Source: Mobula birostris (Eukaryota). Taken from it: 64,000 nucleotides of DNA. The stretch's first letter is position 1; each line of letters begins with the position of its first letter. Shown piece by piece: positions 9,001 to 12,000 of this stretch. The position numbers were made by a program. The stretch covers positions 25,373,649 to 25,437,648 of the forward strand of contig NC_092398.1 of the NCBI RefSeq assembly GCF_030028105.1, read 5' to 3'.

Positions 9001-12000
9001 GGAGTTTGGTGCAGATGGTGAGTAAAGATATCTGTGGAAGGGGTGTTGAGGGAGGAGCCTTTCGAGGGTGTGTATCGATTTGGACAGGGAGATTGAGAGA
9101 GAGGTGGGCGTTGAGAGTGAAGAGAGGGGTTTGGTCGAGGGGGTAGGTGGGAATGTGGGCACGGAACTGAGGGAGGTGGATGCAGTGAGTGAAGGTGAAA
9201 GGTTTGCTTACCCAGCACGACCGAATCCCAAGTCTACTGTATTATTGGAGTTTTATAGTGGGAGGGAGAGGTGGTTCTGGTAAAAACATAGGTGGAGTGG
9301 TACCTTTTCATTGTGTGGTATCCACAGAAAGGGAAGAGACAAATTTGCTGTTTCAATTCTATTAAATTTTAAGGTTTTAAACTGTGCCATTTCTCTCTCA
9401 CAAATGGCTAATGGATCGATTATTGTTTGCTTCCTAGGGATGCGCATCGGTCAAGTGACTCTATATTTTAGCCGTTTGGAGGTATATTCTTACAATGGCG
9501 AAGAGTTCGTTCATTTTGATTGCAACACAGCAAAGGCTGTGGCTGTCAATCCGCTTGTACAGCCTTACTTGGACGTACTGAACAACAACAGAAAGAATAT
9601 GAGTCAAGTTATCCACATCCTTGAGGTTATTGCTCCACGAATTCGCAATGCCATTCGAGCTCTGACTAGTAAGTTTGTTGTCAATGTGATGTTCAAACAG
9701 GCTTTGTGCCATAGTTTGACAGAAAGGACAAGACAAGGGAACACACAAATACCAGTCCTCAAAGAGGGGTCGGAAGTGGAGAGAGTGAGCAATTTCAAGT
9801 TCCCAGTTGTCAATATCTCTGGGGATTTATCCTGGGCCCTACATATTGAGACAGTTACGAAGGTAGCACGACAGCAGCTCAATCTCATAGGAGCTTGAGG
9901 AAGGTTGATATGCCACCAAAGATTTGCTCAAATTTCTACAGATGTACCGTGGAGAGCATTCTAGCTGGCGGCATATGGGGCGGGGTGCAGAGACGGCAAA
10001 GTATTGAAAGAAGCTGCAGAAAGATGTGAACTCAGTCAGTTCCATCATGGACACTAGCCTCCTTAGCGTTCAGGAACCTTCAAGGAGTGATCAACAAGGA
10101 AGTACAGGAGCCTGAAGGCACACACTCAGTGATTCAGGAAGAGCTTCTTCCCTTCTGCCATCAGATTTATGAACAGTCCATGAACATAAACTCCCTATTT
10201 TTGCGCTCTATTTGAACTAATTTAATTTAAATGTTTTTCTTGTAATTTATGTTTTTATGCAAAACAACAAATTTCACAACCTCATAGTCCATGGCCACTT
10301 TATTGGGTATGTCCTGTACCTACTAAATTGGCTACTGAGTGTATGTTCGTTGTCTTCTGTTGCCGTAGCCCATCCACTTTAAGATTTGACGTATTTGTGC
10401 ATTCAGAATTTCTCTTCTGCACACCACTGTTGTAACACATGCTGATTAGAGTTCTCATTGTCTTCCTGTCAGATTGAACCAGTCTGAACAATTCTCCTCT
10501 GACCTCTGTCATTAAACAAGGCGTTTTCACCCACAAAACTGCTGCTCACTGGATGCTTTTTCTTTGTCACACCATTCTCTGTTAACTCTAGAGACTGTTG
10601 TGTGTGAAAATCCCAGGAGATCAGCAATTTCTGAGCTACCCCACCTGGTCCACAGTCAAAGTCACTTGAATCATATTCCTTCCCCATTCTGATGTTTGGT
10701 CTGAACAACACTGAACCTCTTGATCATGCCAGCATACTTTGATGCATTGCGTTGTTGTCACATGATTGGCTGATTAGATATTTTTATTAATGAGCAGGTG
10801 TACCTAGTAAAGTTGACACTGAATGTATGTTATTGACACTAAACCTGATTCTGATCTGCATGAACCTGTAGCTAATTAACCTCCCAATTCAACTTTTGAT
10901 TTCTTGGCCAGCTGTATTTTCACCTTACAGAAACTCTGGGTTACCAACAGCTCTGGAAACCCTTGTGTGAATTGGGAGTGTCTGAAAGAACCATTCCCCT
11001 GGTCAGAGGCAAATGACTCAGGGGACAGTTTCTAAATGCTAAAGATTCTGCAGGTAGTAAAATCCAGAGCAACACACACACACACACACACACACACACG
11101 AATTCAGAATTAGGCCATTCGACCCATTGTGTCTGTTCCAGCATTCCGTCATGGTGGAATCTCAAGGTTGTATACTTTATAGTCGCCAAACAATTGATAC
11201 TAGAACGTACAATCATCATAGCGATATTTGATTCTGCACTTCCCGCTCCCTGGATTACAAATCGATAGTAAATATTAAAAATTTAAATTATAAATCATAA
11301 GTAGAAAATAGAAAAATGGAAAGTAAGGTAGTGCAAAAAAACTGAGAGGCAGGTCCGGATATTTGGAGGGTATGGTCCAAATCCGGTCAGGATCCGTTCA
11401 GCAGTCTTATCACATAATGTATAATGTACACATGCTTTAATAATAAGCATACTCTGAACTTTGAAATTCTGTTATTCTTTACTTTTTCTGATCCTGTAAC
11501 CAAGTTCAACTTCAATGCATTTCTGTCCACTGCAGTGAAGCCGACGATCACAATAACCTCAAGACACCTGAAGAACAGAGAGAATACCTTGGCCCTGACA
11601 TGCCAAGTGCATGGATTTTATCCCAAGGATATCCATGTAATGTGGCTGCGGAATGGTGAAGCGATCGATCGGGAAGTGCTAAATACAAGCATTTTACCCA
11701 ACCGGGATGGGACATACCAAGTCCAGCTACAGGTTGACATTGACCCCGGGAAGGGTGACACTTACGTTTGTGAAATTGAGCATTTAAGCATCCCTAGCAA
11801 GCTACATGCAGTTTGGGGTAAGGCTCAGTGTCTGAGTAATTTGGGGTCCCGTGTACTGGTGATGATCTGGTTCACACTCTGTCCAACACTATATTATACA
11901 CTCAGTGGCCACTTTATCAGGCACCTCCTCTACATAATAAAGTGACCATTGAGTGTAAGGTCGTGGTCTTATGCTGCTGTAGCTCATCCGCTTCAAGGTT

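What the first reader, a model, noticed from the sequence alone, without database searches (positions are those of the whole stretch)
9438..9668. WB beta1 domain is short, lacks the canonical disulfide and has a lone Cys
The exon is only 77 codons, versus about 90 for class II beta1 or class I alpha2. Anchoring on class I numbering, G91-M-R-I-G-Q96 and Y116-S-Y-N-G120 align, so the class I-specific Q96 is present. Only 10 residues separate Q96 from Y116 instead of 19, so about 9 residues of the strand 1-2 hairpin are missing, including C101. The C164 partner is also absent. A single Cys sits in FDCN, and WA alpha1 has no Cys to pair with it. Inference: a remodelled platform that may bind something other than peptide, or form Cys-linked dimers.
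Basis: partly seen in the sequence, partly recalled or inferred. Interest (0 to 1): 0.65.

Follow-up and report, generated by a model that had tools for sequence, protein, structure and literature searches.

The report
Compact beta1 in ray W-type MHC
This is the beta1 exon of a W-category (MHC class II-shaped) beta-chain gene of a ray, belonging to a stingray and devil-ray sub-lineage whose beta1 domain lost nine residues, while the missing disulfide is common to all shark and ray relatives examined and the single cysteine is not conserved.

Summary
Window 9438-9668 is a clean phase 1-1 exon of 77 codons with an AG acceptor and GT donor. It lacks both canonical MHC cysteines and has one Cys (9521-9523). 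It is exon 2 of an intact W-category beta (WB) gene. NCBI gene models of two rays give the same exon start and length, so no upstream exon or longer acceptor is involved. The short length is lineage-specific: 3 of 17 elasmobranch WB beta1 domains (window, Mobula hypostoma, Hemitrygon akajei) have 76 aa plus the split Gly. The other 14 have 85 aa or more, differing by two internal deletions (6 aa in the strand 1-2 hairpin, 3 aa at the helix kink). The missing disulfide is not special, since 0 of 17 have the pair. The C101 column is retained but holds Phe; it was not deleted. The lone Cys is Ser in Hemitrygon, so Cys-linked dimers are unlikely. Short-type beta1 sits on a long stem branch (0.77 against 0.04 for beta2) but has since been as conserved as beta2 (88% against 89%). 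This fits a remodelled, maintained nonclassical molecule. Ligand and partner remain untested. Verdict: new variant of a known kind, of modest interest.

The parts
8348..8465 (+). WB exon 1: start codon and signal peptide (MGVVMPSLRTVSQLAGVRRRRSPFLLAASLLLLNGSPAL plus the first base of Gly), ending in phase 1 before a GT donor
   Evidence: Sequence read. tblastn of Mobula hypostoma P0002 residues 1-44 gives 84% identity.
8466..9437 (+). Intron 1, 972 nt, G-rich (437 G of 972), with no tandem repeat and no other copy in the window. It contains no exon that the orthologous gene models use.
   Evidence: P0002 and P0003 join the leader directly to MRI/MHI.
9438..9668 (+). WB exon 2: the compact beta1 domain, 77 codons, phase 1-1. 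This is the finding.
9521..9523 (+). The lone Cys codon (TGC), residue 28 of the exon translation. It lies in the predicted strand 3-4 turn, at the column that holds the Tyr of an N-Y-T sequon in 5 of 12 longer WB.
9596..9604 (+). N-M-S glycosylation sequon at the helix kink, beside the 3-aa deletion. It is present in 3 of 3 short-type sequences and 0 of 12 other WB.
   Evidence: position read.
11536..11817 (+). WB exon 3: beta2 Ig C1-set domain, 282 nt, phase 1-1. It contains LPNRDG, that is P and G where class II has W.
   Evidence: PF07654, E 3.3e-18. It is 89% identical to P0002.
13818..13919 (+). WB exon 4: connecting peptide and transmembrane segment (VPKNTNPVYGYVIGVIAGIIGILIAVSGGIVKWK)
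   Evidence: 94% identity to P0002 residues 211-244.
30831..30880 (+). WB last exon, the cytoplasmic tail, ending at TAG 30878-30880. The Mobula and Hemitrygon proteins read on for 13 more residues here. It lies 16.9 kb downstream, beyond LINE insertions.
38841..39095 (-). WA alpha1 exon, 255 nt, phase 1-1, with no Cys. The gene is tail-to-tail with the WB gene.
   Evidence: No Pfam match.
37182..37463 (-). WA alpha2 exon (Ig C1-set). It has HLSFGKDW (the L, F and W of the W-category / beta2-microglobulin motif) and VTLQKN (Leu in place of the Ig-core Trp).
   Evidence: PF07654, E 2.5e-19. Motifs as described in PMC8713811.
35551..35680 (-). WA transmembrane segment within an open frame (…ICGLIIGILGTAAGLYLC…). 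Exon borders were not determined.
   Evidence: The G-spaced motif is as quoted for the W-category alpha chain in PMC13399432.

Best explanation
The exon encodes the membrane-distal beta1 domain of an intact, nonclassical W-category MHC beta chain (WB). The chain belongs to a paralogue lineage confined, as far as sampled, to myliobatiform rays.

**Origin (inferred).** After a duplication of an 86-residue-type WB gene, this lineage underwent four changes:
- It lost 6 residues at the tip of the strand 1-strand 2 hairpin.
- It lost 3 residues at the kink between the two helical segments.
- It replaced about 60% of its beta1 residues.
- It moved its beta1 N-glycan sequon from the strand 3-4 turn to the helix kink.

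The domain was then held nearly constant.

**The cysteines.** The canonical floor-to-helix disulfide was already absent in the common stock of elasmobranch WB genes, so its absence here is inherited. The single Cys is a point substitution of the Tyr of the old N-Y-T sequon and is dispensable, being Ser in Hemitrygon.

**Mechanism (inferred, not shown).**
- The chain pairs with a WA alpha chain to form a class II-shaped heterodimer on the cell surface, as shown for salamander WA/WB by Okamura et al.
- By beta-meander topology the shortened hairpin and the strand 3-4 turn lie at the same end of the platform, under the C-terminal end of the beta1 helix. That end of the groove is therefore cut back.
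- The molecule is therefore unlikely to hold a peptide the classical way. It more probably acts as a ligand-free or small-ligand surface molecule read directly by a receptor.
For: **Gene structure is intact.**
- Five exons have canonical splice sites and open frames.
- Exon-by-exon matches to the named NCBI proteins P0002 (Mobula hypostoma) and P0003 (Hemitrygon akajei) are 88% and 75% in beta1 with no indel, and 89% and 86% in beta2.

**The exon start is right.**
- P0002 and P0003 read …ALG|MRI/MHI….
- The longer paralogues start at the same residue, so the missing residues are internal to the exon.

**Length distribution.**
- 3 of 17 beta1 domains are 76 aa.
- The table of 15 has 3 of 76 aa, 11 of 85-86 aa and 1 of 106 aa.
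- The two further long-type rows, P0009 and P0021, are seen.

**Cysteines.** None of the 17 has a canonical pair. Five of 17 keep only the first Cys.

**Trees.**
- In the whole-protein tree the short clade (100/100) is sister to the long-type myliobatiform clade (96/94), with Pristis P0016 outside both (90/88).
- In the exon trees the beta1 stem is 0.77 and the beta2 stem 0.04.
- Paralogue identity between P0002 and P0007 is 39% in beta1 and 85% in beta2.

**Sequons.** N-M-S occurs in 3 of 3 short types and 0 of 12 others. N-Y-T occurs in 5 of 12 others, at the column of the lone Cys.

**Family assignment.**
- PF00969 and C1-set match.
- The WB profile hits MR1 and class I alpha2-alpha3 best (E 1.8e-40), ahead of class II beta (7e-29).
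- The AF2 model of P0002 matches class II beta chains.

**Literature.**
- WA/WB heterodimer, surface expression, and the lack of a full set of peptide-binding residues: PMC8713811, sections read.
- W-type genes are multicopy in elasmobranchs: PMC10751288, section 10.
Against: - No transcript or protein data were available. The supporting models of the other rays are automatic NCBI predictions whose RNA support I could not see.
- The cytoplasmic exon carries a stop 13 codons earlier than in both orthologues, and the neighbouring WB copy is a pseudogene. Early decay of this copy is therefore not excluded.
- Only three short-type sequences exist, and no codon alignment was possible, so purifying selection is inferred from protein identity alone.
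- The beta1-only tree leaves the short clade in a polytomy. An older origin of this beta1 exon, with later homogenisation of beta2 among paralogues, would fit equally well.
- Both AF2 monomer models are below pLDDT 50 for strand 1 and the hairpin. The geometry of the cut-back end is therefore argued from topology, not modelled.
- The nearest WA is tail-to-tail rather than in the head-to-head arrangement described for WA/WB pairs, so the true partner is unknown.
- WB of bony fish and salamanders could not be examined.
Confidence: 0.72

Rival explanations
1. The gene is a decaying or already dead copy. The short beta1, the lost disulfide and the odd Cys would then be debris of relaxed constraint.
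For: - The cytoplasmic tail has an earlier stop than both orthologues.
- Intron 4 is 16.9 kb long and full of LINE reverse-transcriptase frames.
- The WB-like copy just upstream is a clear pseudogene.
Against: - Exons 1-4 are open with canonical splice sites.
- The same 76-aa beta1, without any indel, is kept in two other ray species on separate branches.
- beta1 is as conserved as the Ig domain between window and Mobula, 88% against 89%.
- The early stop removes only the end of the tail.
Confidence: 0.12
2. The shortness is an annotation artefact. The real exon would use an upstream acceptor or a micro-exon that restores length and the first Cys.
For: The frame stays open upstream to 9284 and holds a Cys (…VLNCAISLSQMANGSIIVCFL…). 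No RNA data were available.
Against: - The acceptor at 9436-9437 has a strong pyrimidine tract.
- The leader ends in phase 1 and joins to give Gly-Met-Arg-Ile, exactly as in P0002 and P0003.
- All longer WB start at the same residue, and their extra residues are internal.
- The upstream open stretch resembles no WB sequence in the tblastn.
Confidence: 0.04
3. The lone Cys is functional. It would make a disulfide-linked homodimer, a bond to the partner chain or another protein, or a covalent attachment point for a ligand.
For: The Cys is present at the same column in the window and in Mobula hypostoma. It lies in a predicted surface turn (pLDDT about 73-77 in that block).
Against: - It is Ser in Hemitrygon akajei and Tyr or Phe in the long-type WB.
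- The WA alpha1 in the window has no Cys.
- One-base steps connect Tyr, Cys and Ser codons, which is what neutral drift at a surface site would give (inference).
Confidence: 0.08
4. The short beta1 exon is an old, separate lineage rather than a recent derivative. Its beta2, transmembrane and tail exons would look young because of gene conversion with neighbouring long-type WB genes.
For: - beta1 of the short and long paralogues is 39% identical while beta2 is 85%.
- The beta1-only tree gives a polytomy of the short clade, Pristis P0016, skates and the long myliobatiform clade.
- The genes lie in one cluster: P0002 and P0007 are listed on a contig of the same length.
Against: - No short-type beta1 was found among the 2 sharks, 4 skate proteins or 2 Pristis proteins recovered.
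- The whole-protein tree supports a myliobatiform duplication.
- The searches were word-seeded and capped, so absence is weak evidence.
Confidence: 0.15

Closest known systems
W-category MHC beta chain (WB) of Okamura et al. 2021 (PMC8713811); called W-type genes in Verissimo et al. 2023 (PMC10751288)
   Same: - It has the class II-type exon and domain order.
- The beta2 domain has P and G in place of the class II Trp.
- The Gln is near the start of beta1, followed by x-Y-N-G-x-E.
- It has a neighbouring WA gene whose alpha2 has the L..F...W motif and lacks the Ig-core Trp.
- It belongs to a multicopy cluster.
   Different: - beta1 is 9 residues shorter than in the other 14 elasmobranch WB examined here.
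- The A of the A-x-x-G-x-D motif is Ser in the window, and the D is Glu.
- The nearest WA is tail-to-tail, not head-to-head.
- No reference WB sequence from the paper could be compared, because its supplements are closed.
Long-type WB paralogues of the same rays (P0007-P0012 of Mobula, Hemitrygon and Hypanus; P0016 of Pristis)
   Same: - The signal peptide, exon 2 start, beta2 (82-85% identity), transmembrane segment and tail are the same.
- They also lack the canonical Cys pair.
   Different: - They have 6 more residues in the strand 1-2 hairpin and 3 more at the helix kink.
- beta1 identity is only 39-43%.
- Many carry an N-Y-T sequon where the short type has D-C-N.
- They have no N-M-S sequon.
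Classical MHC class II beta chain (best single-sequence PDB match: chicken BL2, 7apz_B / 6t3y_B)
   Same: The beta1 core (strand 2 to mid-helix) aligns without gaps, E 1.2e-4. There is a Pfam MHC_II_beta match. The predicted fold matches class II beta chains.
   Different: - There is no C15-C79 disulfide.
- The N-terminal strands are about 8 residues shorter and the helix end about 4 residues shorter (my count from the alignment and recalled HLA-DR numbering).
- There is no Trp at the beta2 interface position.
MR1 and class I alpha2-alpha3 (best profile match, 8bp6_A)
   Same: The WB family profile aligns over alpha2+alpha3 with E 1.8e-40, better than to class II. The Gln, the column of C101, and Y-A-Y-D-G line up.
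   Different: - The architecture is two chains rather than one heavy chain with three domains.
- All WB lack 2+2+2 residues relative to MR1 alpha2, including the pair that holds the second Cys.
- The short type lacks 9 more.
Mouse T10/T22 (class Ib ligands of gamma-delta T cells)
   Same: This is an analogy only. It is an MHC-fold molecule whose groove is cut back by deletions so that no antigen can be loaded (passage in PMC7608190; the structure paper by Wingren et al. 2000 was seen only as a reference entry there).
   Different: - It belongs to a different class and domain, and its deletions are independent.
- Recognition of the ray molecule by any receptor is unknown.

Membership tests
W-category MHC, beta chain (WB) | Class II-type beta-chain organisation: leader, one membrane-distal domain, one C1-set Ig domain, then connecting peptide/TM/tail on separate phase-1 exons | tested here: met
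   Exons are 8348-8465, 9438-9668, 11536-11817, 13818-13919 and 30831-30880. Pfam gives PF00969 and PF07654.
W-category MHC, beta chain (WB) | The beta2 domain has Gly (not the invariant class II Trp) at interface position 61, and Pro at 57 (PMC8713811) | tested here: met
   The window beta2 reads …ILPNRDGTYQ…. P and G are 4 residues apart, at the place where class II has …GDWTFQ…. That class II motif is recalled; position numbers were mapped by me.
W-category MHC, beta chain (WB) | beta1 shares with class I alpha2 the residues Q6, A32, G35 and D37 that contact the Trp of the partner Ig domain | tested here: inconclusive
   The window has Q, S, G, E (QVT…YSYNGEE). Mobula and Hemitrygon short types have Q, A, G, E. 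So Q and G are met, A is replaced by Ser in the window only, and D is conservatively Glu.
W-category MHC, beta chain (WB) | A linked WA gene whose alpha2 has L55, F/Y57 and W61, and lacks the Ig-core Trp at 37 | tested here: met
   The WA alpha2 exon 37463-37182 (minus strand) reads …HLSFGKDW… and …VTLQKN…. The orientation is tail-to-tail, about 23 kb from the WB transmembrane exon. The paper describes head-to-head pairs.
W-category MHC, beta chain (WB) | Clusters with reference WB sequences (e.g. banded houndshark) rather than with class I or class II in a tree | not tested
The relatives used here carry only automatic NCBI names ('class II … beta chain-like').
Classical MHC class II beta chain | Intradomain disulfide between strand 1 and the helix of beta1 (C15-C79) | tested here: not met
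   Neither Cys is present. The one Cys lies in the strand 3-4 turn.
Classical MHC class II beta chain | Invariant Trp at the beta2 interface position 61 | tested here: not met
   It is Gly in the window. The criterion is from PMC8713811.
MHC class I heavy chain | alpha1, alpha2 and alpha3 domains on one chain | tested here: not met
   The leader exon joins directly to the alpha2-like (beta1) exon. The alpha1-like domain is on a separate gene on the other strand.
T10/T22-type truncated-groove MHC molecules | Loss of part of the platform so that the groove cannot hold a ligand, shown by structure | not testable with these tools
   Monomer AF2 models leave strand 1 and the hairpin below pLDDT 50. 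No heterodimer model was obtained.

The most novel reading that the evidence does not exclude
Myliobatiform rays evolved, from an ordinary WB gene, a neofunctionalised W-category molecule. One end of its groove has been removed, through a shortened hairpin, a shortened helix and a relocated glycan. It would be a ligand-free, invariant surface tag read directly by a lymphocyte or NK-type receptor. That would be an independent parallel to T10/T22, arising in a class II-shaped molecule of the oldest jawed vertebrates.
Probability: 0.2. Interest if true: 0.55.

Novelty: new variant of a known kind. Interest (0 to 1): 0.3.

Why it matters
[quoted passage not shown] Two results bear on this.

- A sub-lineage has a cleanly derived, conserved 9-residue contraction of beta1. 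This gives a natural structure-function contrast within one gene cluster, short against long WB in the same species.
[quoted passage not shown] This bears on models that derive class I from a W-type ancestor.

Neither result changes what is known about the family's role. The specific features flagged as odd, the missing disulfide and the lone Cys, turn out to be inherited or incidental.

Tried and rejected
1. **Complex prediction** of the WA alpha1 exon with the WB beta1 exon gave no verdict (score 0.01). The tool did not use my alignment. This says nothing either way.
2. **phmmer** of the single beta1 exon against 1.84 billion representatives gave 4 hits at E ≤ 0.001. Only one was an orthologue (P0003). 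One was a class II beta1 fragment (P0005) and two were ankyrin-repeat proteins that I take as spurious.
3. **My first tblastn reading** suggested that the upstream WB-like copy shares the short hairpin. That was a misalignment. Against Pristis P0015 that copy is of the long type.
4. **AF2 monomer models** of short (mean pLDDT 59.3) and long (57.1) WB were meant to show the hairpin difference. Both leave strand 1 and the hairpin below pLDDT 50, so they only place strands 2-4 and the two helices.
   - The span from helix 1 start to helix 2 end is 39 residues in the short type and 42 in the long type.
5. **An upstream in-frame acceptor or micro-exon** was rejected (see the rival explanations).
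6. **Tandem repeats and dispersed copies of intron 1:** none were found.
7. **Literature.** I found no description of a short-beta1 WB.
   - The searches were 'W-category' with 'MHC' and 'class II' (3 papers), 'W-category' alone (4 papers) and MHC class II / elasmobranch / nonclassical / beta1 domain (39 papers, 10 listed).
   - The supplements of PMC8713811 and PMC10751288 hold the WB alignments and could contain it, but they were closed.
8. **A joined (spliced) protein** of the window gene was deliberately not built, searched or folded.
9. **One paper reading** failed on a two-letter term and was repeated without it.
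Full report
**What is at the coordinates**

Window 9438-9668 (+) is an exon of 231 nt. AG at 9436-9437 follows a pyrimidine tract, and GT at 9669-9670 follows the exon. Read in phase 1 it gives (G)MRIGQVTLYFSRLEVYSYNGEEFVHFDCNTAKAVAVNPLVQPYLDVLNNNRKNMSQVIHILEVIAPRIRNAIRALT. This is 77 codons counting the split ones.

- It passes Pfam MHC_II_beta (PF00969, 34.6 bits against a cut-off of 20.9; residues 13-56 match profile positions 15-58 of 75).
- As a single sequence it aligns without gaps to chicken class II beta1 from strand 2 to mid-helix (E 1.2e-4).
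- It has one Cys (TGC 9521-9523), and no Cys in strand 1 or in the helix.

The window has no N. It is elasmobranch, not human.

**The gene around it**

| Exon | Coordinates | Content |
|---|---|---|
| 1 | 8348-8465 | Start codon and signal peptide, ends in phase 1 |
| 2 | 9438-9668 | beta1 (the finding) |
| 3 | 11536-11817 | C1-set Ig domain (PF07654, E 3.3e-18) |
| 4 | 13818-13919 | Connecting peptide and transmembrane segment |
| 5 | 30831-30880 | Cytoplasmic tail, beyond a 16.9-kb intron full of LINE frames |

On the minus strand lies a WA gene.
- Its alpha1 exon is 39095-38841 (no Cys).
- Its alpha2 exon is 37463-37182.
- A transmembrane segment lies near 35.6 kb.

The diagnostic residues described by Okamura et al. 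2021 (PMC8713811; Results parts 1-2 and section 12 read) are present.
- WA alpha2 has …HLSFGKDW… and Leu in place of the Ig-core Trp.
- WB beta2 has …LPNRDG…, that is Pro and Gly where class II has Trp.

One reservation remains: I had no reference WB sequence to compare, because the supplements are closed.

I searched the gene exon by exon. I did not build, search or fold the joined spliced protein of the window.

**Is the exon really this short?**

The exon alone finds two named NCBI proteins over its full length.
- P0002, Mobula hypostoma, 273 aa, 88% identical.
- P0003, Hemitrygon akajei, 269 aa, 75% identical.

Both read …ALG|MRI/MHI… with nothing between the signal peptide and the domain. 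The longer paralogues begin at the same residue. The missing residues are therefore internal to the exon, and no upstream acceptor or micro-exon could restore them. These are automatic gene models whose RNA support I could not inspect.

**How widespread are the features?**

Two further searches were made, one with P0002 and one with an alignment (11 and 19 proteins found). They gave 16 named elasmobranch proteins that carry a beta1 (alignment A3).

I left out three rows:
- P0013 and P0014, isoforms lacking all or part of beta1.
- P0017, from an unnamed source, which I did not use.

With the window that makes 17 beta1 domains.

*Length.* The table covers 15 of the 17.
- 76 aa in 3: the window, Mobula short and Hemitrygon short.
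- 85-86 aa in 11.
- 106 aa in Leucoraja, which has a 21-aa insert that may be a model error.
- P0009 and P0021, not in that table, are long type.

The short type differs by a 6-residue gap in the strand 1-2 hairpin and a 3-residue gap after L-N-x-N-R.

*Cysteines.*
- 0 of 17 have a pair at the canonical positions.
- 5 of 17 (sawshark P0018; skates P0019, P0020, P0021, P0023) keep a Cys five residues after the Gln. This is the column of class I C101 and class II C15. None of them has a helix partner.
- The window has Phe in that column.

*Profile alignment to MR1.* The family profile aligned to MR1 (E 1.8e-40, ahead of class II beta at 7e-29) shows that all WB lack 2 residues in the hairpin. 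They also lack 2 in the helix (the pair containing the second Cys of class I) and 2 at the end. The short type lacks 9 more.

So the missing disulfide is a family trait in sharks and rays, and the short length is the lineage-specific part. WB of bony fish and salamanders stayed unchecked.

**The lone Cys**

It is present in the window and in Mobula. It is Ser in Hemitrygon and Tyr or Phe in the long type. In 5 of 12 other WB that column is the Tyr of an N-Y-T sequon.

In the AF2 model of P0002 it falls in the turn after strand 3. That model has mean pLDDT 59.3 and about 70-77 in beta1 residues 54-116. A non-conserved surface substitution is the simplest reading, and nothing supports a disulfide role.

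**History**

- In a whole-protein tree rooted on the two sharks, the short clade (100/100) is sister to the long-type myliobatiform clade (96/94). Pristis P0016 lies outside both (90/88).
- In exon-wise trees that include the window's exons separately, the beta1 stem of the short clade is 0.77 changes per site. The beta2 stem is 0.04.
- Within the short clade branches are short.
- Identities agree.
  - Short against long paralogue in Mobula: 39% in beta1 and 85% in beta2.
  - Window against Mobula short type: 88% in beta1 and 89% in beta2.

The pattern is a burst of change in beta1 followed by conservation. It is accompanied by a new N-M-S sequon (9596-9604) in 3 of 3 short types and 0 of 12 others.

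The beta1-only tree is a polytomy at the relevant node. An older origin of this exon, with later homogenisation of beta2, therefore cannot be excluded.

**Mechanism**

*Shown:*
- The gene is intact through the transmembrane exon.
- The domain is of MHC type.
- The deletions are in-frame and conserved.

*Established elsewhere:*
- WA and WB of a salamander need each other for glycan maturation and surface expression.
- W-category subgroups lack full sets of peptide-binding residues (PMC8713811).
- W-type genes are multicopy in elasmobranchs (PMC10751288, section 10).

*Inferred:*
- In a beta-meander the strand 1-2 hairpin and the strand 3-4 turn lie at the same end of the sheet.
- In class I and II that end lies under the C-terminal part of the domain's helix. 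This structural point is recalled knowledge.
- The 6-residue loss, the changed strand 3-4 turn and the shorter helix therefore cut back one end of the platform.

I take the product to be the beta chain of a nonclassical WA/WB heterodimer with a foreshortened groove. It is more likely recognised as such than loaded with peptide. T10/T22 is a loose analogy (passage in PMC7608190). The AF2 monomer models do not resolve strand 1 or the hairpin, so the geometry is not modelled.

**What counts against**

- The tail exon stops 13 codons earlier than in both orthologues.
- The copy upstream is a pseudogene.
- The WA in the window is tail-to-tail rather than head-to-head.
- There are no expression data and no codon-level test.
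- Only three short-type sequences exist.

**Verdict**

- Q96 is shared with class II, according to the paper.
- The C101 column is substituted, not deleted.

The domain is remodelled, but the missing disulfide is inherited from the family and the Cys is incidental.

I found no description of a short-beta1 WB in the searchable texts. The closed supplements of the two W-gene papers may show it. I rate it a new variant of a known kind, of modest interest.

Noticed in passing
window 2-181 (+) and 4431-4700 (+): This is a second WB-like gene, broken, and cut by the window start. A long-type beta1 fragment, 62% identical to Pristis pectinata P0015, ends in TGA at 179-181. The beta2-like exon has two in-frame stops and gaps, and Tyr where the first Ig Cys should be.
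   Followed up: partly
window 30878-30880: TAG in the WB cytoplasmic exon where Mobula and Hemitrygon have a sense codon. The tail is 13 residues shorter, although the downstream sequence still reads …LPRISSECTTEA like the orthologues. This looks like a recent nonsense change.
   Followed up: partly
window 9596-9604, and the column of 9521-9523: The short-type WB carry a conserved N-M-S sequon at the helix kink. They have lost the N-Y-T sequon that 5 of 12 other WB have in the strand 3-4 turn. The beta1 glycan site seems to have moved.
   Followed up: yes
window 8466-9437: Intron 1 of WB is strongly G-rich (437 G, 242 A, 173 T, 120 C) and gives long spurious open frames on both strands. No tandem repeat was found, and there is no second copy in the window.
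   Followed up: partly
window 60621-61064 (-) and 63239-63682 (-): Two nearly identical exons each encode one scavenger-receptor cysteine-rich domain (PF00530, E 4.8e-36 for the first). They are part of a tandem SRCR gene next to the W-gene cluster.
   Followed up: no
window 15734-17779 (-), 22699-25547 (+), 27456-30508 (+), 52077-55840 (+): Several LINE-type reverse-transcriptase and endonuclease frames are present, some long and open (681 aa, 420 aa, 350 aa). Three of them lie inside intron 4 of the WB gene.
   Followed up: no
window 37182-39095 (-) relative to 8348-30880 (+): WA and the intact WB converge tail-to-tail, about 4.7 kb between the WB stop and the WA transmembrane segment. Okamura et al. 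describe head-to-head pairs. No WB exon was found to the right of WA in the window by tblastn.
   Followed up: partly
alignment A3, Leucoraja erinacea P0023: This has a 21-residue insert in the beta1 helix region that no other WB has, including the other skates. It may be retained intron in the gene model.
   Followed up: no
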